Below, one piece after another: positions 5,192-50,148 of a DNA stretch of 64,000 bases. Source of the stretch: a phage. How positions within the stretch are numbered: the stretch's first letter is position 1; every line of letters starts with the position of its first letter. The notes beneath the pieces are model-generated. The model saw only the letters and a program-made list of their open reading frames with translations. It was not told where the DNA came from and searched no databases. A program made the translations under genes and the position numbers. The stretch lies in sequence record NC_100371.1; one strand, given 5' to 3'.

Positions 5192-5268
5192 TGGTCTCCA
5201 CGGAGTGATTCGAACACTCGACCTCCTGATCCCAAATCAGGCGCTCTACCAAGCTGAGCTACGCGGAG
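5192..5268 (-). tRNA. tRNA-Pro (anticodon UGG)
   Basis: Hand-folded cloverleaf: 7-bp acceptor stem, GTTCGAAT T-loop, anticodon loop TTTGGGA, encoded CCA. Confidence 0.75.
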
Positions 5269-5279
5269 TATTTATTATT

Positions 5280-5354
5280 TGGTGGCCCTGGGTGGAATTG
5301 AACCACCGTCTGGCGATTATGAGTCGCTTGCTTGAACCTTCCAGCTACAGGGCC
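5280..5354 (-). tRNA. tRNA-Met (anticodon CAU; could be initiator or Ile-lysidine type)
   Basis: Acceptor GGCCCTG/CAGGGCC, T-arm GGTGGTTCAATTCCACC, anticodon loop CTCATAA, encoded CCA. Confidence 0.7.
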
Positions 5355-5355
5355 A

Positions 5356-5431
5356 TGGTGCTGATGGCAGGACTTGAACCTGCAACCTATTGATTACAAA
5401 TCAATTGCACTGCCAATTGTGCTACATCAGC
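5356..5431 (-). tRNA. tRNA-Thr (anticodon UGU)
   Basis: Perfect 7-bp acceptor stem, D-stem GCAC/GTGC, anticodon loop TTTGTAA, T-arm GCAGGTTCAAGTCCTGC, CCA. Confidence 0.75.
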
Positions 5432-5435
5432 AAAA

Positions 5436-5534
5436 GGTGCTAGGTGATGGAATCGAACCATCTATGTATTCAACGACTACCTCGTCTATTTTCAGGATTA
5501 AAAATCCTCGCCCTTGCCAAAGGGCTTACCTAGC
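5436..5534 (-). tRNA. atypical tRNA-like gene (long variable region; anticodon not assignable by eye)
   Basis: Perfect acceptor pairing GCTAGGT/ACCTAGC and canonical T-arm GATGGTTCGATTCCATC, but about 99 nt long with an unusual anticodon-arm region (AGGAT-TTTTA-ATCCT); no complete encoded CCA. Confidence 0.4.
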
Positions 5535-5632
5535 TCAGCATGTTGACCATGTTGCTAGTCGGCGATGACGACTGTAACATTTGATAATCCGGTTCTGCTT
5601 CCGGCTTTCGCTTAATTACAAGGTCAACAATA

Positions 5633-5723
5633 TGGCAGAGGATAATGGAATCGAACCATCATCGAGTCATCCTCAACGGGACGGTTTTCAAGACCGCTTG
5701 AGCACCATTGCTCCCTACCCTCT
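5633..5723 (-). tRNA. tRNA-Ser (anticodon UGA), type II
   Basis: Acceptor AGAGGGT/ATCCTCT, anticodon loop CTTGAAA, long variable arm, T-arm GATGGTTCGATTCCATT, CCA. Confidence 0.7.
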
Positions 5724-5837
5724 TTTATAAACAATACTGATAATGACACTGATTTTCGAGCAGTTAGTGACTAGTATAAACGACGATAAATATCAATGCC
5801 ATTATCTGTATGATTTATGCATTTAAAAATATAAATT

Positions 5838-5925
5838 TGGTGGTGAGTGATGGAGTCGAACCACCCGAATCGCAATGATAACAGATTTACAGTCTGCCCC
5901 GCTACCCCTACGGAATTAACTCACC
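5838..5925 (-). tRNA. tRNA-Tyr (anticodon GUA), type II
   Basis: Acceptor GGTGAGT/ACTCACC, anticodon loop CTGTAAA, long variable arm, CCA. Confidence 0.7.
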
Positions 5926-6055
5926 TAAATACTAATATTTAAATTCTTTTTAAAATAGCTAGTGTTCTAACCACTAACTATGAGGTATCGGTAAAGTGGT
6001 TACCGCCACTTGCCGAAGATTTACTCTGCTAAAGTAAGCTACATTAAAAAGAACT

Positions 6056-6130
6056 TGGCACCCCGTACTGGACTCGAACCAGTGTCAACGGCTTAGAAGG
6101 CCGCTGCTTTATCCACTAAGCTAACAGGGC
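6056..6130 (-). tRNA. tRNA-Arg (anticodon UCU)
   Basis: Acceptor GCCCTGT/ACGGGGT, anticodon loop CTTCTAA, T-arm ACTGGTTCGAGTCCAGT, CCA. Confidence 0.75.
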
Positions 6131-6226: not shown

Positions 6227-6565
6227 TTAACTATTGCCAACAGGCTGTATTTCTGTGGTAAATGGCATAAAAGGTGCTGGTTTTTCAGCCTCTTCCACTA
6301 CCACCTCTTCCTCTTCACCAAACATCTCATCATATTCTTCCTGCATTCTGTCTGCCTTATCAAGAACATACTCTGCAATGCTTTGACGAATATTTTGTTT
6401 GGTTTTCGGGTCCAACATCAGCTCTCTTAAAACTTTGTGAGCTTCTGGAACCATCGCTATAAAAGATTCCTTCATATCAAGAATGTTCTTCTCTAGCTGA
6501 ATGGCGTTGGACTCCTCTTTCAGAGGTCTGCCTCTACGGCGACGCTTTTTAGTTGTATCCGCCAT
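6227..6565 (-). CDS. hypothetical protein (basic N-terminus, acidic C-terminus)
   Basis: ATG at 6565 preceded by GGAGGAAAC RBS; the 152-aa track ORF is probably an over-extension. Confidence 0.5.
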   Translation of the reverse strand: MADTTKKRRRRGRPLKEESNAIQLEKNILDMKESFIAMVPEAHKVLRELMLDPKTKQNIRQSIAEYVLDKADRMQEEYDEMFGEEEEVVVEEAEKPAPFMPFTTEIQPVGNS

Positions 6566-6593
6566 GTTTCCTCCATTATCACGTGATAGGTGG

Positions 6594-6622
6594 ATTTTAT
6601 CACGGCAAATACTGATTGTCAA
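6594..6622 (-). promoter_or_regulatory. sigma70-like promoter
   Basis: Minus strand TTGACA-N17-TAAAAT just upstream of the 6565 start. Confidence 0.5.
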
Positions 6623-6910
6623 GTTCGCCGCAGGGTGGTATTCCCTGCGACTTGCCCAGCGTCCTGGACCAGCAAGACCCAACAAGTGGGTTACCAGATA
6701 CCCATTACCGCGCTCTGGCTCGACCTTATTACAGGTTGGCTGGGGTCACATCGTCATGTGCTGGCTGCCCCTACCATTTTAAGTGTGGTGCACTATCAAG
6801 CCCTCTAAGGGGAACTCAGCCTTCTCCGAACCCTGTTTCAAAGCATCCGGAGATAAAGCCATCAAACTCATCTTTAAATTGGATATTCATCATGATACAC
6901 GAAAACAACC

Positions 6911-7153
6911 TCATTGTAAAGCACAAATAAATAAAACATACTTAATTTGTTTGTTATCAGGCTCAGGGTAGAAGTAGAAGATCTTGCTATCACCGATCTG
7001 AACACCACCATCCCAACAGCATAACCCATAACCAGTATTCATACAAGCTAAGTCGTTGGCAAAATCTATTGCATCATCTAGTGCACGAAATTCACCTTCA
7101 TCTTCTAAATAATCCTCATTCATGGAACGGAAAACGAGCTTAACCTTAAACAT
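6911..7153 (-). CDS. hypothetical protein
   Basis: 80-aa ORF in a same-strand gene array. Confidence 0.4.
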   Translation of the reverse strand: MFKVKLVFRSMNEDYLEDEGEFRALDDAIDFANDLACMNTGYGLCCWDGGVQIGDSKIFYFYPEPDNKQIKYVLFICALQ

Positions 7154-7229: not shown

Positions 7230-7418
7230 TCAACAGATTCCGGCCTTATCCCTCCTGTCTGCGTATTCTTTAATCGCAACCTCACCTGCATTGGTAACCA
7301 GATCTTCAAAGTAATTCTCAAGCTCCTCGTCAATGTCCGGTGACCAGCTCTTTTTCCTGTCAGTGTGAATTGCAGACTTGTTGAACTTATTACAATTCTT
7401 TGCTACCGGATTGTTCAT
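7230..7418 (-). CDS. hypothetical protein
   Basis: 62-aa ORF. Confidence 0.35.
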   Translation of the reverse strand: MNNPVAKNCNKFNKSAIHTDRKKSWSPDIDEELENYFEDLVTNAGEVAIKEYADRRDKAGIC

Positions 7419-7428
7419 TAAGCTCTCC

Positions 7429-8007
7429 TCAACGTTCGTAGTAAATCTTATTCAACATTACCTCATCGTTTGCAGAAAGGATATCAAGATATGCATCACC
7501 AAATCTGCCTGCAACAACCTCTGCATGATACATCACTTCGTTAACATCGTCAAGAGTGATAACCGGATGACCATATCTTTCTGAATATTGTCTCAGTGTG
7601 CGATGTAACGAGTCGTCATCATATGCAGACTTTTTAATATCACAAACACGACGAATGGCCTTGATGTCGAAAAAACCTGTGCGATACCACCCAAGAAAAA
7701 AGTTCCGTGTAGTGTCAACATCTACATCAATACCATTAAGAACCTTATCTACAAGATAGCTGTCATCCTTTGGACTAGCGTCCTTAGTGCGAATGTAGTT
7801 GCCATCTTTTCCAGGTGATAGCTCCTTCTCATCACCAACCTGCATGCCATCATTTGGCGGTGTTAGCCACTTATCAGGATGCTTACGATCACGAGCGTTA
7901 GAATGATTACGCTGGAAACCTGGCTTCCACTTGAAAGTTTTCTCCATCTGTTCTTCATTCTGATAACGTTTTGCAATCTTTTCACTGGCATCTTTGCGTG
8001 AACTCAT
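7429..8007 (-). CDS. hypothetical protein
   Basis: 192-aa ORF; GAGGAG-type RBS upstream. Confidence 0.5.
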   Translation of the reverse strand: MSSRKDASEKIAKRYQNEEQMEKTFKWKPGFQRNHSNARDRKHPDKWLTPPNDGMQVGDEKELSPGKDGNYIRTKDASPKDDSYLVDKVLNGIDVDVDTTRNFFLGWYRTGFFDIKAIRRVCDIKKSAYDDDSLHRTLRQYSERYGHPVITLDDVNEVMYHAEVVAGRFGDAYLDILSANDEVMLNKIYYER

Positions 8008-8510
8008 AGCAGACTCCTCTTCAAGTTATAGAAAAACTCACTGTATCGCTTTGTAACGAGCTTTTCTATCAAACTGGTGCGATTGCCTTACTTGGTATAG
8101 TTTATATAGCTGTGGAGCGATTTAGGGGCCTTCTTGTCAGTTTCCACACATAAACTTTATCCGAACTCGCGCGGGAGGCTCTCAACCGACTCCTTCCGGC
8201 GCTGGCAAGCTTTCGTCGGTGGTCCACATTAGTGCTCGGCCTTTGGCCTGCGCTATCGCTTCGCTCCCACACATGTTAACAGTCCTGCATGTATGCACTT
8301 CTGTTATTGTGTGCACTATGGAGGCCCGGCATCTCGCCCCTCGTAGGCGAGTGCCAATGAAGGGCCGACACTACCCATAATAAGTAATAAATTTAAAACA
8401 TGGTACTTAGGATCTAGTATATTCTACATAAGTTAAGTATATGTACTTTAGTACCATAAGTACTAGATCTTTTATTTTTTATTATTTAGTTATTTTAGTT
8501 ATATTCTTTA

Positions 8511-8594
8511 TGTGTCCGTATCACGGACAGTTAGTGTCCGTATTACGGGCAGATGTGTCCGCGTGACGGACAGTAGTGTCCGTATCACGGACAG
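8511..8594. promoter_or_regulatory. array of four tandem palindromic operator-like sites
   Basis: Four ~21-bp units with consensus GTGTCCGTATCACGGACAG (inverted half-sites TGTCCGT / ACGGACA) at 8511-8530, 8532-8552, 8553-8573 and 8574-8594, inside a 660-bp intergenic region. Confidence 0.6.
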
Positions 8595-8668
8595 TTACTA
8601 ACCTCTGTTCCAGAGTGAACATAAAACATACAAATCCTTATAGTACAGATGTTTAAGTTTTTACTGGT

Positions 8669-9019
8669 CTAACCAGTTGTTGACATTCGAATAACTTCTT
8701 CTGGTGGCAAAACTTTGGAAAATGTGCATCTTTTACCTCTCCCTTGTGTGGATATTTCAACCACTCCTGCACATTCTAAAGTTTTAACGCACGCTGCTGC
8801 TTTTGTTTTCTTTATCCCAACATCTGCTGCAATTTTCCTGGTGCTGGGTGTGAAGCGTGAATTTTCTCCAAGCTTATACCAGTTGTGCAGGTAGCAGTAT
8901 ACGATCTTGTCATATAAGTCAAGAACAATAACCTCCCCAGTTGTGCCATTCAAAACTTTTGACATAGACAGTATTTCAAGGGGGACTTTAAGATATAGCA
9001 GCTTATCCCCATCTTTCAT
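8669..9019 (-). CDS. hypothetical protein, possible helix-turn-helix DNA-binding protein
   Basis: 116 aa; segment RKIAADVGIKKTKAAACVKTLECAGVV looks HTH-like; lies next to the operator array. Confidence 0.4.
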   Translation of the reverse strand: MKDGDKLLYLKVPLEILSMSKVLNGTTGEVIVLDLYDKIVYCYLHNWYKLGENSRFTPSTRKIAADVGIKKTKAAACVKTLECAGVVEISTQGRGKRCTFSKVLPPEEVIRMSTTG

Positions 9020-13548: not shown

Positions 13549-14831
13549 TGCATCAGATCAAAACAACACTGTACGCACTGAACAAAGATGGCAGCTACCA
13601 ACAGTGGAAAGTATTCACGGATGGTGATAAGGTTATCGTAGAGTTTGGCAAGCTTGATGGTAAACTGCAATACAAAGAGACGATCTGCACACCTAAGAAC
13701 GTGGGTCGTGCCAATGAAACTACAGCTGAGCAACAGGCTGAGCTGGAAGCGATCAGTAAGTGGGAAAAACAAGTCCGTCTGGGGTATGTTGAAAATATGG
13801 AAGATTGCGAGCAGGGTGTTGACCTTTTACCCATGTTGGTGCATGACTACCTGAAGCGTGGAAAGGCACTTAAATTACCTTGCTGGATTTTGCGTAAGTT
13901 AGATGGCCTTCGTCTACTGGTTGTTTTCCAAAACGGTGAGCCTAAATTTATTTCCCGTGGTAATAAGTCCTACCCTATTCAAGGAAAGCTTCTGGAGCAA
14001 CTTCGTTCTTTCCACTTCACCACCGGGATTAAACAGCTCGACGGAGAGATCTATATTCATGGTCTGCCTCTGCAGAAAATAGTGTCTCTTGCTAAACGGT
14101 GGCGCACACAGGAAGAGATTCAGGCCGAGATCGATAAAGACTACGAGGCAGATAAAAAACGCCGTCATGCCGCAATTAAGGCAGGCTTATCAACATACAA
14201 AAACTTCAATAAGGTAGATATTCCTGTTGATGTTGAGCCTGTTCGTGATGATTTGCGTTACGGAGGGTACTGTAGCTATGACTTAGAGTATCATATTTTC
14301 GACATCCCTAGTGACAAGGTATGGTGGGATCCAGAAACAGAATCTGGACGATGCAAGGATCTTATGGATGCAGAAGATACCATTACCACCCTGATGCTTG
14401 ACCATATCAAGGTTGTTGACGCAGAGCTTGCGTACACAGTTGATCATTGCGAAGAATCTGTTGGTGTATTCATGTCCGAAGGATATGAAGGTACTATCAT
14501 GCGTAACTTCTGTGGTAAATATGAATATGGTCAGCGAACATCTGAAGCATTGAAATGGAAAAAGTTCAACGATGCTGAGGTGAAAGTTATTGACGTTGAG
14601 AAAGATAAGAATGATGAAGGTGTTCTTATCTGCGTTGACAAGGAAGGTATCGTTGTTAAAATGAAGATGAAAGGCACGCACGAGGAGCGTAGCTATGACA
14701 GGATGCAGGAAATGATCGGCAAGTTTATCACCTTCAAATATCAAGCAAGGACAGAAGACAACAACTACCAATTCCCTGTCGGCATCTGCGTCCGAAATGT
14801 TAACCCTGACACTTGGGAGGTTCTGGAATGA
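13548..14831 (+). CDS. ATP-dependent DNA ligase
   Basis: 427 aa; nucleotidyl-transferase motif I KLDGLR (KxDG). Confidence 0.6.
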   Translation: MHQIKTTLYALNKDGSYQQWKVFTDGDKVIVEFGKLDGKLQYKETICTPKNVGRANETTAEQQAELEAISKWEKQVRLGYVENMEDCEQGVDLLPMLVHDYLKRGKALKLPCWILRKLDGLRLLVVFQNGEPKFISRGNKSYPIQGKLLEQLRSFHFTTGIKQLDGEIYIHGLPLQKIVSLAKRWRTQEEIQAEIDKDYEADKKRRHAAIKAGLSTYKNFNKVDIPVDVEPVRDDLRYGGYCSYDLEYHIFDIPSDKVWWDPETESGRCKDLMDAEDTITTLMLDHIKVVDAELAYTVDHCEESVGVFMSEGYEGTIMRNFCGKYEYGQRTSEALKWKKFNDAEVKVIDVEKDKNDEGVLICVDKEGIVVKMKMKGTHEERSYDRMQEMIGKFITFKYQARTEDNNYQFPVGICVRNVNPDTWEVLE

Positions 14832-47238: not shown

Positions 47239-47377
47239 CACACAAGTCTGCTTTGCAGGTTTAGCTGCCCAGCTAAGGTTCTGGAGGCACCTATAACATC
47301 TTTCAACTAAATTTCCTACCAACACAGTTACTTACCCACCACACATAACTGTTTGCTTGTTTAGTGAGCAGTCATCC

Positions 47378-47405
47378 CTTGACATTCTTGCCTATCTTGA
47401 TAAAA
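47378..47405 (+). promoter_or_regulatory. sigma70-like promoter with no ORF downstream
   Basis: TTGACA-N16-TAAAAT reading into a purine/GC-rich stretch with no credible ORF. Confidence 0.4.
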
Positions 47406-48766
47406 TTAAGTTCTTCTCTTTTCTTTTACCGAGTAATTCGGGTTTTCTGTTCTCTTCGGTTTGAAGGGGTATGGAGATACACCTGAGTGAACAGGGTGAA
47501 CAACCGAACATTTGGCTATGGCATTAGCATGGCGAAGCGGACGGGTGACGAAAGAGGGGCCGGAGGACACCAGTCACTGCCATATAGTATATGGGTGATA
47601 ACCTGAAGAGTCTGAATAAGTGTTTAAGTACCAGTCAGAGGAAAAGGTGAATGGTAGCCGAAGGGGGAGAGGGGGTTTCTTATATCTTTAATTTGTATAT
47701 TATGTATACACTTGTAAACCAATTCAATTAGGATCTGTTTACCACACAAAGTGGATGGAGACAAATATCACCTATTAAACTTGAATTATTTATAGAAAAT
47801 ACCACAACACCTCTTAAGTATTTGATTTTACACACAAATCTTACAAATATCCTACCTCCATATTTAACATACTTGTAACATATTCCATATCCTACCTGCC
47901 TGATCAATTTACTCCCACCACATCCCCACATTTTCCCTGTCTGTACTACCCCTGCCCCGCCGGGAGTCCCGTCATATCTGGCTTTCCAGCAAATATCGCA
48001 CCCACAAATATCATCACCTGAAGAGGGTTTCATCCCATAATACCTGCCTTACCTGAAGAGCGCTTCATACACCACGTAAATTTTTTAATTGACCCCTCCC
48101 CGCCGCCGGAGAGGTTGGCTTTTCCCACACAGGCCTGAAGAGTCAGCCAGAAATATCTGAACAGGTCCAGTTATACCCCGATTTTGTGCCTGTCCTACAG
48201 GAGTGCTGCCCTGTCAGGAGCCGGTAGCGACTGGAGTGCTGCCAGGCGGACGGAATGGGAATACTTCTCATTTTTATAATAATTCTCAAATATCGAGGCA
48301 GTGAGGCAAATTAATAGGCCAGGCCGTTCACACAGTGGCACAACATTTGCAATCTATCTTGTGGGAGTGAATGAGAATACCTATCATTGTGAGAATGGTT
48401 ATCATTACGGGCAATTTAACATAATACCCATTATGCGCACCACTGGCGATACATACAGGGATTGATAACATGGGTTACTGTTTACGCATATAACAATTAT
48501 ATTTCTTACTATTTGTGTGGGATATAGTTAGCAACCAATAGATTAGATATTGACCTGCAGACTTCTGACCGTCCAGACGTCTAAACGCCCACACAGCAAG
48601 GATTATACATACACTCCTGCATGTAAACAGGACCGCAAAAATGCTACCATACCAGTTTGTAAATTTTTCATGCAGCACTTGACAAAGAGGAGAAAAACTT
48701 GTCTGACACACTGGACACAATGTCCCACAATATGACACAATAACGGCTGTTACTATTCCATATCTC

Positions 48767-48824
48767 ACTGTTTACGCATAGACTGTTTACGCCTGAATAG
48801 TTTACGCAAAAACTGTTTACACAG
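48767..48824. repeat. four tandem iteron-like direct repeats (ACTGTTTACGC)
   Basis: Copies at 14-17-bp spacing; further copies near 48477, 49231 and 49267. Confidence 0.55.
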
Positions 48825-48833
48825 AGATGATAA

Positions 48834-49066
48834 GCCATGCCATTCGTTTGCATGAAAACAATTAACAAGCTAACAATCTATGACATAATATAAAAGCAGG
48901 GCAACTATTAGAAGATCTATAGTTGCCTTGCTTGTTATGTCATGATTAACTAAATACAAGGCAACTATGATCTGAATAATAGATTGCAGACAAACTATCA
49001 CGGGGGTGATTGTTACTGCTTTTATATTATGTCGCGACTCCGTCGCGCCATGCCATTCGTTTGCAT
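48834..49066. repeat. dyad-symmetric element bounded by a 20-bp direct repeat
   Basis: GCCATGCCATTCGTTTGCAT at 48834-48853 and 49047-49066; inverted 18-mers GACATAATATAAAAGCAG / CTGCTTTTATATTATGTC; several GGCAACTAT/ATAGTTGCC palindromes. Confidence 0.5.
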
Positions 49067-49681
49067 AGTTGCCTTATTGTTACAGGTAAAACAATTACAT
49101 TATTAATTATTTCTTATCTTTCTCTTAGTCATCTAATGATTCCAGTCAGTATAGTAATGTACAGTAAACATTAGACGACTAAAGATTTCTCTGTGTATAA
49201 TAACTTATCGTGACAATTTCGAACTGTTTACGAAAAATGTTGACACCTGAGCTGATTTATGTTATGCAGTTTACACGAATAATTATTTTATGCAGGTATT
49301 GACTATTCCGTTATTCTGTGGTTGGAATAAATACTTTGCAGACTATAGAATGGCGTGCGTACGTGAATTCTGAGATCTGGCGGCTATAGTTATACTCGAT
49401 TTTTCGCGTAGAACACGCTTTCGATGCTGTGTAAGTGTATGACTTATAAAGATTTTTAGTTGTTGACAAGATATTGGAGATGTGCATCAGGTTAAAATTT
49501 GTGCAATAGCGGCATTACGTGCACTTTTGGGAGAGAAAACGGGTAAAAATGGCCCTGCTACCACACAATGAAAGATTATGCAATAGTTATTTTCCATGTA
49601 TATTTGTACAGTATGTGGGATTGATGGCTAGTCAATTATTCCACTTGCCAGGTAGGGCCGTTTATGGTAGGAGAAGAGCAG

Positions 49682-49709
49682 ACAAAAAGAAAGGGGCCTT
49701 TAAGCCCCT
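49682..49709 (-). terminator. rho-independent terminator ending the minus-strand gene block
   Basis: AGGGGC-loop-GCCCCT hairpin followed by a T-tract on the minus strand. Confidence 0.55.
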
Positions 49710-49728
49710 TGATAATTCAGTTAAGAAA

Positions 49729-50148
49729 TTATAATGATTCGTATATTTCAAAAATCCGATTTGCCAGGTCGTTACGGTAGCGGAATTTTTCATCGCGCTT
49801 GATCATTAAATCCTTATAGCCGTACTCTTTAAGCACTTCATTAACTTTATAGCGGCATACCTGCATATTATCTTGAGCGTCACCAATAAACTTGTTGCTG
49901 TGGTGCATTGCTTTAATTTCTTCTTCCAGGACCAGGGCAACTACCCGGACCGGATCAAGCTGATAGGCGGTAACATCTATGCGGCATTGTAGACGGCTTT
50001 TAACGTCTGCCACCGGATATACTGCAACCTCTTCCCCGTCAACATTGACAATAATTAGTTTACCATCGATTTCGAATCCTTTCGCCGCCGGACCGTGACA
50101 AAAAGCGTTATCAAAGCTATATGCCGGATTATCAGATTTAATGTTCAT
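49729..50148 (-). CDS. hypothetical protein
   Basis: 139 aa; AAGAGGTAAAAAC RBS. Confidence 0.5.
   Translation of the reverse strand: MNIKSDNPAYSFDNAFCHGPAAKGFEIDGKLIIVNVDGEEVAVYPVADVKSRLQCRIDVTAYQLDPVRVVALVLEEEIKAMHHSNKFIGDAQDNMQVCRYKVNEVLKEYGYKDLMIKRDEKFRYRNDLANRIFEIYESL

What the first reader, a model, noticed from the sequence alone, without database searches (positions are those of the whole stretch)
6630..6910. GC-rich ORF-poor islands in an otherwise AT-moderate genome
6630-6910 (and similarly 8150-8360) are noticeably GC-rich, carry mutually overlapping plus-strand ORFs in all three frames (6501-6930) that look like composition artefacts, and lie upstream of promoters on the minus strand. 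They could encode structured RNAs or be remnants of acquired DNA.
Basis: seen in the sequence. Interest (0 to 1): 0.4.

Follow-up and report, generated by a model that had tools for sequence, protein, structure and literature searches.

The report
Two conserved structured non-coding phage elements
The two GC-rich, gene-poor patches in this rV5-like E. coli phage are conserved, folded non-coding elements: one carries a small RNA motif, absent from Rfam, that many enterobacterial phages including T4 share, often next to their tRNA genes, and the other sits beside a probable replication origin and is shared with small phage-like plasmids.

Summary
The window is a Vequintavirus (rV5/FV3-like) genome. 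The two islands are its two highest GC peaks, and the overlapping plus-strand ORFs are broken in relatives.

The islands are not host or junk DNA, and they are not related to each other.

- **Island 1 (6566-6815, minus strand)** contains a ~50-nt three-helix RNA motif (6695-6745). I found it in about ten phage lineages. Helices P1 and P3 are supported by covariation. In five or six of about eleven lineages it lies co-oriented within 50-710 nt of phage tRNA genes, and in T4-like phages it lies in the vs.8 leader. It matches no Rfam family.
- **Island 2 (8166-8372, minus strand)** is a multi-hairpin element with six compensatory pair changes between phage and plasmid copies. In three contexts it follows three unrelated iteron sets plus AT-rich DNA. 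That is an origin-like arrangement.

Best reading: both are structured leader or intercistronic RNAs of minus-strand operons. Island 2 may instead act as origin-proximal single-stranded DNA.

Function is inferred, not shown.

The parts
6566..6815 (-). Island 1: non-coding stretch between the 32-aa ORF and ORF74
   Evidence: GC peak. Unannotated or inconsistently annotated in relatives. Plus-strand ORFs are broken in relatives. Identity to the divergent relative L040 is 90-96%, against 83% for ORF77.
6695..6745 (-). Three-helix RNA motif: P1 - AACCUGUAAYAAGGUCRAG - P3 hairpin - GGUAAUG - P1'
   Evidence: Covariance model R1 scores it 71.1 bits, E about 4e-20. Covariation in P1 and P3: 0 of 500 shuffles reach the observed score, and 91% of cells are paired against 20-43% when partners are slid. 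Found in T4-likes and other phages.
6742..6771 (-). Two-tier stem-loop just 5' of the motif (GGGGCAGCCAG-CACAUGACGAUGUG-ACCCC)
   Evidence: A hairpin of different sequence occupies the same position in T4-likes, L059, L050, L052, L064 and L131. Compensatory changes are seen, for example GGGAA/UUCCC to GGGAG/CUCCC and GAAUG/CAUUC to GAGUG/CACUC.
6768..6815 (-). Conserved 5' module of island 1 (GUUCCCCUUAGAGGGCUUGAUAGUGCACCACACUUAAAAUGGUAGGGG)
   Evidence: Nearly identical in the L059/L192 lineage, where ORF74 is only 75% identical. In that lineage a TTGACA-17-TATACT promoter sits 7-14 nt upstream.
6623..6694 (-). Variable 3' hairpins of island 1, including CGCAGGG-AAUACCA-CCCUGCG at 6629-6649
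   Evidence: Seen in the single-sequence fold. Replaced by other hairpins in the L059 lineage and partly deleted in L038.
6594..6622 (-). Sigma70-type promoter P74 for ORF74 and the tRNA cluster
   Evidence: TTGACA-17-TAAAAT, 11 of 12 matches. Annotated P74 in rV5.
6892..6920 (-). Promoter-like site upstream of island 1 (TTTACA-17-TATCAT). Function uncertain.
   Evidence: 10 of 12 matches. The -10 stays TATNAT in relatives. It overlaps the start of the 32-aa ORF.
6816..6914 (-). 32-aa ORF (MMNIQFKDEFDGFISGCFETGFGEG), probably a real gene and not part of the RNA
   Evidence: Intact in 8 of 8 relatives, with mostly synonymous changes. Annotated in two records.
8166..8372 (-). Island 2 element: H1 (8366-8323), variable H2, long-range P1 (8272-8264 with 8177-8169), H3 (8248-8238), H4 (8220-8185)
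   Evidence: Consensus fold on the minus strand, with 6 pairs changed on both sides between phage and plasmid copies. P1 has two U.G pairs that would be A.C mismatches on the plus strand. The helices are invariant among 9 phage copies, while H2 and the linkers vary.
8380..8504 (.). AT-rich stretch between the iterons and island 2 (candidate DNA-unwinding region)
   Evidence: GC is 0.35 in windows 8301-8500 and 8401-8600. A-rich or AT-rich DNA occupies the same position in L040 and in the plasmid.
8512..8597 (.). Four 21-22-bp iteron-like repeats (GTGTCCGTATCACGGACAG), each containing an inverted repeat
   Evidence: Annotated as repeat_region in phages pangalan and Alma.
8669..9019 (-). ORF79, a 116-aa winged-helix protein (initiator-like or regulator)
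   Evidence: PHROG 12838 'replication initiation protein', E 5.7e-78. Pfam DUF6945 scores 28.8 bits (cutoff 28) and HTH_36 scores 24.8 bits (cutoff 25). Restricted to Vequintavirus.

Best explanation
Both islands are conserved, non-coding, structured RNA elements read on the minus strand, the same sense as all neighbouring genes. They act as untranslated leader or intercistronic parts of early-type operons.

**Island 1.** It is a roughly 120-190-nt RNA. Its core is a compact three-helix motif with invariant joining sequences (AACCUGUAAYAAGGUCRAG ... GGUAAUG), preceded by a hairpin. The same motif occurs in about ten lineages of enterobacterial phages, usually in the untranslated leader of, or next to, phage tRNA gene arrays. 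In T4-like phages it lies in the 5' leader of vs.8. I infer that it acts in cis on the transcript or on the transcribing polymerase. Candidate roles are protection from premature (Rho-type) termination, processing or stability, or binding of a factor or ligand. The effect would be to secure expression of downstream untranslated tRNA genes and early genes.

**Island 2.** It is a roughly 205-nt multi-hairpin element. It always lies on the far side of an AT-rich stretch from a set of iterons, next to a winged-helix initiator-like gene. This is an iteron-type origin module. The same arrangement holds in small phage-like E. coli plasmids. I infer that it is the leader of the operon transcribed away from the origin. 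It may couple that transcription, or its own folded single strand, to origin function.

**What is shown:** conservation, non-coding status, base-pair covariation, strand preference and genomic context.

**What is inferred:** that the islands are transcribed, and every mechanistic step.
For: **Non-coding and conserved**
- The plus-strand ORFs are broken in relatives, while flanking genes are intact.
- Island 1 is 90-97% and island 2 is 87.5-95% identical in divergent relatives where ORF77 is 83-89% identical.
- There is no Rfam or tRNA hit.

**Island 1 motif**
- A 45-nt match at 88-95% identity occurs in more than 560 T4-like records. It is always just upstream of vs.8, whatever gene precedes it.
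- Pattern scans and covariance model R1 find it in further unrelated contigs at 43-71 bits.
- P1 pairs 7-45 and 8-44 and P3 pair 28-35 are 100% paired, each with three or four pair types. The covariation score is 0.263 against 0.093 in shuffles (0 of 500 reach it). Slid controls give 20-43% paired against 91% observed.
- Ten G.U pairs at position 6-46 favour this strand.
- Co-oriented tRNA arrays lie 50-710 nt away in the window lineage, L059/L192, the L131/L183/L185/L188 group, L146 and L050, and also in the weak match L120.
- Sigma70-like promoters lie upstream on the same strand in L059, L120 and L131.

**Island 2**
- There are six compensatory pair changes in H1, H3 and H4 between phage and plasmid copies, and no broken pairs in those helices.
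- P1 forms a 9-bp helix with two U.G pairs on the minus strand only. L040 keeps P1 through GGAAGA/UCUUCC.
- Three unrelated iteron families (window, L040, plasmid) are each followed by AT-rich DNA and then the element, in the same orientation.
- No other DNA or protein similarity links the plasmid to the window.
Against: - There are no expression data. Transcription of either island is inferred only from gene orientation and promoter-like sites.
- No sigma70-like promoter was found directly upstream of island 2, and no intrinsic terminator follows either island.
- Single-sequence folding energies are only mildly better than shuffles (z -1.65 for island 1, -2.67 for island 2) and are about the same on both strands.
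- Island 2 covariation rests on just two lineages, phage and plasmid.
- Helix P2 of the island 1 motif never varies, so it is untested.
- In L050 and L146 the motif lies downstream of the tRNAs, not upstream. In T4-likes, L053, L064, L068 and L189 no tRNA gene lies in the DNA fetched around the motif.
- In the window a promoter (P74) lies between the motif and ORF74 plus the tRNAs. Cis action on those genes would therefore need read-through transcripts.
Confidence: 0.5

Rival explanations
1. Island 2 works as folded single-stranded DNA rather than RNA. It would be a single-strand initiation (ssi) or primosome-assembly-type signal. Once the adjacent AT-rich region of an iteron origin is opened, the element is exposed and host primase or PriA-type priming starts there, whichever initiator and iterons the replicon uses.
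For: - The order iterons, AT-rich DNA, element is the same in three replicons with non-homologous iterons and initiator-like genes.
- The element is the only sequence shared between phage and plasmid.
- The several GC-rich hairpins show compensatory changes, which fit a folded single strand of either chemistry.
- From my own knowledge, G4-type and phiX-type ssi signals are 100-200-nt multi-hairpin elements next to plasmid origins.
- GAAGCGA at about 8263-8257 is a near match to the AAGCGG hexamer of n' sites. That hexamer is recalled from memory and was not tested.
Against: - P1 and the inner stem of H4 depend on G.U wobble pairs, which are weak as G.T pairs in DNA.
- The stems are short and interrupted.
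- The structured strand is also the sense strand of the downstream operon in every context, as expected for a leader RNA.
- That 8512-8597 is an origin is itself inferred.
Confidence: 0.2
2. Island 2 (and possibly island 1) is an rrn- or lambda-nut-like antitermination leader. It would use boxA- and boxC-like sequences to recruit NusB/NusE/NusA to RNA polymerase.
For: - UGUGUGGG, identical to the boxC 8-mer of the E. coli rrnB leader, forms the 5' strand of P1. It recurs three times in the plasmid copy.
- Plasmid copies read CGCUCUUUGUGUGGG or CUCUUUAGGCAAUAUGUGUGUGGG. Published boxA sequences are UGCUCUUUA (rrn) and CGCUCUUA (lambda) (PMC2724277).
- The element sits in a long untranslated stretch ahead of an operon.
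Against: - The phage copy has only CUGUUAACA in place of boxA, and L040 has CUGUUCACG.
- In rrn operons boxC is dispensable for antitermination (PMC2724277).
- CCACACA/TGTGTGG is over-represented across the whole window, including coding DNA (28 found against 8.4 expected), so the 8-mer is less telling here.
- Most of the conserved structure (H1, H3, H4) is unexplained by this model.
Confidence: 0.12
3. The island 1 motif is a trans-acting decoy or mimic, for example of a tRNA anticodon loop or of the 16S rRNA 3' end. It would be made together with the phage tRNAs to absorb a host RNA-targeting defence nuclease or another host factor.
For: - The motif is associated with phage tRNA clusters.
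- The invariant CUGUAA equals the anticodon-loop core of tRNA-Tyr. That sequence is from my own knowledge.
- GUAACAAGGU, AACCUG and CGGU also occur in the last 50 nt of E. coli 16S rRNA. Only the segment from CUGCGGUUGG onward was read here; the rest is from memory.
- There is precedent for a counter-defence RNA in an rV5-like phage: the pseudo-ToxI of phiTE (PMC3475682).
Against: - The loop does not have the 7-nt anticodon-loop geometry.
- ARAGORN and the tRNA covariance model do not recognise it.
- A 10-mer match to some part of the rRNA is not unlikely by chance. My rough estimate is about 0.15 over 4.5 kb.
- The key G is A in L068, and the Y position varies.
Confidence: 0.1
4. The islands are neutral leftovers of horizontally acquired GC-richer DNA, or they encode small proteins such as the 56-aa ORF78 of rV5 at 8102-8272 (minus strand).
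For: - GC content is well above the genome mean.
- Pieces are shared with other replicons.
- ORF78 is annotated in rV5 and NHEP1 and is intact in 6 of 8 relatives.
Against: - The helices are invariant or change only in compensatory fashion, while the linkers vary.
- Identity is as high as or higher than in flanking genes.
- No host chromosome match exists.
- The island 1 ORFs are frameshifted in most relatives. ORF78 is truncated in Alma and L040. The plasmid copy carries a ~100-nt insertion there.
Confidence: 0.06

Closest known systems
Orphan structured phage RNAs next to tRNA genes (T4 rnaC/rnaD stable RNAs; GOLLD and ROOL RNAs)
   Same: Phage-encoded, conserved, structured and non-coding. 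Frequently adjacent to and co-oriented with tRNA genes. Function unknown. The tRNA association of GOLLD and ROOL is from my own knowledge.
   Different: No sequence or structure match to the Rfam models of GOLLD, ROOL or any other family. The motif is only ~50 nt, against 500-800 nt for those RNAs. In T4 it lies in the vs.8 leader, not in the tRNA region.
Cis-acting processive antitermination RNAs (HK022 put; rrn / lambda nut boxA-boxB-boxC)
   Same: Short structured elements in untranslated leaders just downstream of promoters, ahead of long operons. Island 2 contains the exact boxC 8-mer, and its plasmid copies contain a boxA-like CGCUCUUU.
   Different: No put sequence was available for comparison. 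The boxA match is poor in the phage copies. Nothing here tests binding to polymerase or Nus factors.
Iteron-type origins with adjacent structured DNA (ori-lambda; plasmid G4-type and phiX-type ssi signals)
   Same: A winged-helix initiator-like gene, four or five directly repeated ~21-bp sites, an AT-rich stretch, then a GC-rich folded element, in fixed order.
   Different: Origin function has not been demonstrated. The helices rely on G.U pairs. No known ssi sequence was available for comparison.
Riboswitch aptamers and small self-cleaving ribozymes
   Same: Compact multi-helix junction in which the stems covary and the joining nucleotides are invariant across distant phages.
   Different: No match to any Rfam riboswitch or ribozyme model at E up to 10. 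No obvious expression platform. No ligand or cleavage site can be named.
Pseudo-ToxI non-coding RNA of the rV5-like phage phiTE
   Same: A functional non-coding RNA in a gene-poor locus of an rV5-like phage (PMC3475682).
   Different: Pseudo-ToxI is a 36-nt tandem repeat that mimics an antitoxin. Neither island is repetitive or similar to it.

Membership tests
Any Rfam 15 family (riboswitches, ribozymes, sRNAs, GOLLD, ROOL, tmRNA, 6S and others) | Covariance-model match at the gathering score, or at least at E<=10 | tested here: not met
   Only tRNAs were found in the window at gathering score. Nothing lies inside 6566-6815. Across 8166-8372 the only hit is a weak chance-level rli43 match (24.6 bits against a cutoff of 100). 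Nothing lies at the motif in nine other loci.
tRNA / tmRNA / tRNA-like gene | Cloverleaf recognised by ARAGORN or the tRNA covariance model | tested here: not met
   ARAGORN and RF00005 find the tRNA genes at 5192-6130 (six by ARAGORN, seven counting the Rfam-only tRNA at 5841-5925). Neither finds anything in the islands.
rrn / lambda nut antitermination site | boxA consensus (UGCUCUUUA or CGCUCUUA) | tested here: inconclusive
   Plasmid copies of island 2 have CGCUCUUU or CUCUUUA. Phage copies have only CUGUUAACA or CUGUUCACG.
rrn / lambda nut antitermination site | GU-rich boxC (UGUGUGGG) downstream of boxA | tested here: met
   The exact 8-mer lies at 8273-8266 (minus strand) and is identical to the rrnB leader. 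The word is, however, over-represented window-wide.
rrn / lambda nut antitermination site | Nus-factor-dependent read-through of terminators | not testable with these tools
   Needs in vitro transcription or genetics.
Iteron-type replication origin (ori-lambda-like) | At least three direct repeats of ~20 bp beside an AT-rich stretch | tested here: met
   There are 4 copies at 8512-8597 spaced 21-22 bp apart. GC is 0.35 in the adjoining windows. Analogous but unrelated repeat sets occur in L040 and in the plasmid.
Iteron-type replication origin (ori-lambda-like) | Adjacent gene for a DNA-binding initiator | tested here: inconclusive
   ORF79 matches PHROG 12838 'replication initiation protein' at 5.7e-78, but that label is not experimental. 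Pfam HTH_36 scores 24.8 bits, just under its cutoff of 25. ORF79 could equally be a transcriptional regulator with operators.
Iteron-type replication origin (ori-lambda-like) | Replication actually starts there | not testable with these tools
   The rV5 paper could not place the origin from skew analysis (PMC3606486).
Single-strand initiation (ssi) / primosome assembly signal | Multi-hairpin single strand next to an origin that supports priming | tested here: inconclusive
   Hairpins with compensatory changes lie next to the putative origin. Priming activity is not testable here, and the G.U-dependent helices argue for RNA.
Protein-coding gene | Reading frame preserved among relatives | tested here: not met
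   The three plus-strand ORFs are broken in 5-6 of 8 relatives. ORF78 is truncated in 2 of 8 and is disrupted in the plasmid copy.
Host-derived or plasmid-derived acquired DNA | Similarity to host chromosome or plasmid sequence | tested here: not met
   Island 1 has no match in the E. coli genomes or in plasmids other than the phage itself. Island 2 has no chromosomal match. It matches only the homologous element in four or five 13-kb phage-like plasmids.

The most novel reading that the evidence does not exclude
The ~50-nt island 1 motif is a new class of cis-acting RNA. It could be a put-like polymerase-modifying (antitermination) element, or a new aptamer or ribozyme. Many enterobacterial phages would use it to drive expression of untranslated tRNA arrays and delayed-early genes. 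Because it sits in the vs.8 leader of T4 itself, it could bear on the old question of how T4 early transcription escapes Rho-dependent termination, and it would be directly testable in a model phage.
Probability: 0.15. Interest if true: 0.8.

Novelty: new member of a known kind. Interest (0 to 1): 0.55.

Why it matters
**Island 1.** If the motif is functional, it is a widespread phage RNA element that is not in Rfam and that I did not find in the literature searched. It has near-invariant joining sequences and is present even in T4, where genetics and public transcriptomes make it easy to test. Its link to phage tRNA arrays suggests a missing piece in how phages express or protect their tRNA operons.

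**Island 2.**
- It gives a concrete candidate for the still unmapped replication origin of rV5-like phages.
- It shows one folded module being reused next to three different iteron systems, including a family of 13-kb capsid- and tail-encoding plasmids.
- That reuse points to a host-facing, initiator-independent step: priming, transcriptional activation, or leader control.

**Annotation.** Genome annotators currently either leave these regions blank or fill them with spurious small ORFs.

Tried and rejected
- **Rfam.** Searches at gathering score and at E<=10 on the window and on 12 related loci returned nothing at either island.
- **Homology between the islands.** A pairwise alignment looked suggestive, with a shared AUAGUGCAC(C)ACAC. 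That stretch varies among phages, and nhmmer finds no cross-match and no further copies in the window.
- **Host origin.** Rejected.
- **Wider relatives through ORF79.** The protein is confined to Vequintavirus.
- **Similarity to the 2.5-kb gene-free region.** None with island 2 or the plasmid.
- **Too-loose pattern.** AAGGTCNAG..GGTAATG gave more than 120 mostly chance loci. The covariance model kept only L146, L068 and a weak L120 from them.
- **Second model hit in the window.** The hit at 14373-14422 (21.5 bits) lies antisense inside a 427-aa ORF and is taken as chance.
- **5' module pattern scan.** It added only one true relative (L192) plus chance hits in coding DNA.
- **Known small RNA classes.** I considered twister, hammerhead and HDV-like (theta) ribozymes, T-box, preQ1 and Y-RNA resemblances from memory. 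None is supported by Rfam, and the variable P3 loop argues against a twister-like pseudoknot.
- **Literature.** Searches for the sequences and for rV5 or T4 non-coding RNAs at these loci found nothing relevant.

Full report
**What the window is**

The region matches 119 phage records at 95-99.6% identity. Nearly all are Vequintavirus (rV5, FV3, NHEP1 and others). Around the finding every annotated gene is on the minus strand. In order:
- a tRNA cluster at 5192-6130
- ORF74 at 6227-6565
- a gap, which is island 1
- a 32-aa ORF at 6816-6914
- ORF75 at 6911-7153
- ORF76 at 7230-7418
- ORF77 at 7429-8007
- a 660-nt gap that holds island 2, an AT-rich stretch and four repeats
- ORF79 at 8669-9019

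**Check of the observation**

Mean GC is 0.424 and 200-nt windows have sd 0.039. The two highest peaks in 64 kb are at 8168 (0.60, z 4.5) and 6622 (0.565, z 3.6). Segments 6620-6830 and 8150-8375 fall in the top 0.09% and 0.03% of same-length windows. The three overlapping plus-strand ORFs in three frames are real as strings. In eight relatives, frameshifting indels or early stops cut them in five or six cases. ORF74, ORF75, ORF76, ORF77 and the 32-aa ORF stay intact in nearly all. A near-consensus promoter (6622-6594, minus strand, 11 of 12) abuts island 1.

**Not host DNA, and not one family**

Island 1 has no match in 5,426 complete E. coli genomes or in plasmids. Island 2 matches no chromosome. 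It matches only four or five small plasmids. Both islands are present in all ~118 Vequintavirus records. Rfam and ARAGORN find nothing in them. Profile searches show that the two islands are unrelated to each other and that the window holds no further copies.

**Island 1**

*Match to T4-like phages.* A 45-nt piece (window 6699-6743) matches more than 560 T4-like records at 88-95% identity. In Tequatrovirus, Mosigvirus and Dhakavirus it always lies just upstream of vs.8 on the early strand, whatever gene precedes it (denV, ipII/ip4 or others). It ends about 60 nt before the vs.8 start codon. ORF74 and Vs.8 are unrelated proteins.

*Wider distribution.* Pattern scans of IMG/VR found the same core in other ~120-140-kb rV5-like lineages (L059, L060, L063, L192). 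They also found it in Webervirus-like ~46-kb phages (L131, L183, L185, L188), Pylas-like 70-kb phages (L146, L186), a 360-kb contig (L050) and several unplaced contigs (L052, L053, L064, L068, L189).

*Consensus.* The motif reads P1 - AACCUGUAAYAAGGUCRAG - a short P3 hairpin - GGUAAUG - P1'. A hairpin of variable sequence sits directly upstream.

*Covariation.* On 21 distinct sequences, the two inner P1 pairs and the variable P3 pair are paired in every sequence, each with three or four pair types. The covariation score is 0.263 against 0.093 in shuffles, and 0 of 500 shuffles reach it. Overall 91% of cells are paired, against 20-43% when partners are slid. P2 never varies, so it is untested. 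Ten G.U pairs at one P1 position favour the window's minus strand.

*Model search.* A covariance model scores known copies at 55-71 bits. It recovers L146 (62.8 bits) and L068 (43.6 bits) from about 860 kb of mostly unrelated viral DNA. The next hits are much weaker: L120 at 24.1 bits, and an antisense-in-ORF hit in the window at 21.5 bits.

*Context of island 1*
- Co-oriented tRNA arrays lie 50-710 nt from the motif in the window lineage, L059/L192, the L131 group, L146 and L050. The weak match L120 shows the same.
- Sigma70-like promoters lie upstream on the same strand in L059, L120 and L131. In L059 the promoter is TTGACA-17-TATACT, 7-14 nt before the conserved 5' module. In L131 about 820 nt of untranslated, internally base-paired RNA separate the promoter from four tRNAs.
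- The 5' module of island 1 (6768-6815) is almost identical in the L059 lineage, although ORF74 there is only 75% identical.
- In the window lineage the 32-aa ORF overlies the place where the L059 lineage has its promoter. A conserved promoter-like site lies at 6920-6892.

*Reading.* Island 1 therefore looks like a structured leader RNA of an operon that runs into ORF74 and the tRNA genes. Its core is a motif that many enterobacterial phages share.

**Island 2**

*The plasmid copies.* The only non-Vequintavirus matches are unannotated DNA in 13.2-13.7-kb circular E. coli plasmids. These plasmids encode a capsid protein, a baseplate protein, a tape measure protein and a winged-helix Rep-like protein. 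Nothing else in these plasmids resembles the window at DNA or protein level.

*Structure.* Alignment of phage and plasmid copies shows conserved blocks joined by helices whose sequences differ but stay complementary:
- H4: ACCGAC/GUCGGU against GCUGCC/GGCAGC
- H1: CUCGCC/GGCGAG against CUCUCC/GGAGAG, and GGCA/UGCC against GUCA/UGAC

The consensus fold on the minus strand has six pairs changed on both sides and no broken pairs in H1, H3 or H4. A long-range helix, GUGUGGGAG with CUCCCGCGC, has two U.G pairs. On the plus strand these would be A.C mismatches, and the fold there is correspondingly poorer. The most divergent phage copy (L040, 87.5% identical) keeps that helix through GGAAGA/UCUUCC. 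Among nine phage copies the helices are invariant, while H2 and the linkers vary. rV5 lacks 18 nt of H2.

*Context of island 2.* In the window the element follows four 21-22-bp repeats (8512-8597) and an AT-rich stretch, downstream of ORF79. ORF79 is a 116-aa winged-helix protein that PHROGs labels 'replication initiation protein'. In L040, ORF79 and its repeats are replaced by a non-homologous winged-helix gene and five unrelated 20-nt repeats. An A-rich stretch and the island 2 element still follow. In the plasmids, six 19-nt iterons and three AT-rich 36-nt repeats precede the element in the same orientation, and the Rep-like gene lies downstream.

*Reading.* Three unrelated iteron sets followed by the same folded element point to a role tied to an origin-type module but independent of the initiator's specificity. 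That 8.4-8.6 kb is the origin remains an inference. The rV5 paper could not locate the origin (PMC3606486).

**Mechanism**

I commit to structured RNA on the minus strand for both islands, acting in cis as leader or intercistronic elements. The most plausible job for island 1 is to secure transcription or processing of downstream untranslated tRNA genes and early genes. For island 2 it is to act as the leader of the operon transcribed away from the origin, possibly coupled to origin activation.

For island 2, a folded single-stranded DNA priming signal is a serious rival. It fits the context equally well, but it fits the G.U-dependent helices less well.

An rrn/nut-like reading rests on an exact boxC 8-mer (UGUGUGGG, as in rrnB) and on boxA-like CGCUCUUU in the plasmid copies. 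The phage boxA-like sequence is poor, and the word is over-represented throughout the window.

Resemblances of the island 1 motif to the tRNA-Tyr anticodon loop and to the 16S 3' end are recalled from memory and are weak.

None of these mechanisms is shown. There are no expression data here, and single-sequence folding statistics are unremarkable.

**Novelty**

Neither element matches an Rfam 15 family. I found no paper that mentions the sequences or describes these loci. A large catalogue of candidate viral RNAs exists (PMC10690425), and I could not check whether it contains the motif. I file both as new members of known kinds: an orphan structured phage RNA motif, and an origin-adjacent structured element. 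Interest is moderate. It is raised by the motif's presence in T4, by its near-invariant core, and by the reuse of island 2 next to three different iteron systems.

Noticed in passing
L009 (NZ_CP020521.1, whole record); also L008, L010-L012: A family of 13.2-13.7-kb circular E. coli 'plasmids' (one record is a 39.6-kb trimer). Each encodes a major capsid protein, baseplate protein, tape measure protein and a winged-helix Rep-like protein, and carries iterons. They look like mini-phage or satellite-like replicons and share only the island 2 element with the window.
   Followed up: partly
window 47240-49730: A 2.5-kb stretch without credible genes between convergent gene blocks, corresponding to the 'non-coding' box in the rV5 paper. 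It holds the third-highest GC peak (48010-48311, GC 0.56) and several CCCACACA motifs. It has no detectable similarity to islands 1 or 2 or to the plasmid.
   Followed up: partly
window, whole (for example 3940, 4330, 8266, 9135, 48124, 48588): The word CCACACA/TGTGTGG occurs 28 times against 8.4 expected (0 of 100 shuffles reach this). The 8-mer TGTGTGGG equals the boxC sequence of the E. coli rrn leader. It occurs in both coding and non-coding DNA. The cause is unknown.
   Followed up: partly
L131 5574-5698 (minus strand): The first ~125 nt of an ~820-nt untranslated, internally base-paired leader upstream of a tRNA array in a Webervirus-like phage. It matches unannotated DNA in over 500 phage records, including Felixounavirus and Kuttervirus. 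This may be another widespread non-coding element.
   Followed up: no
window 5436-5534 (minus strand): ARAGORN calls a 99-nt tRNA with a four-base anticodon (atcc). Rfam gives it a weak tRNA score (37.5 bits). Other records annotate it as 'tRNA-OTHER' or tRNA-Lys.
   Followed up: no
window 6816-6914 (minus strand): A 32-aa ORF (MMNIQFKDEFDGFISGCFETGFGEG) overlaps the ORF75 stop codon. It is intact in all eight relatives, with mostly synonymous changes. In the L059 lineage it ends after 13 codons, and a consensus promoter occupies the rest of that position.
   Followed up: partly
L059 3115-3418: A group I intron (81 bits) sits where the large-terminase-like ORF of a related 139-kb phage breaks off. 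rV5's terminase is likewise annotated as joined from three pieces.
   Followed up: no
window 8376-8505: The AT-rich stretch next to the iterons contains several short inverted repeats built on AGTAC, GGTAC and TAGATC. They were not analysed.
   Followed up: no
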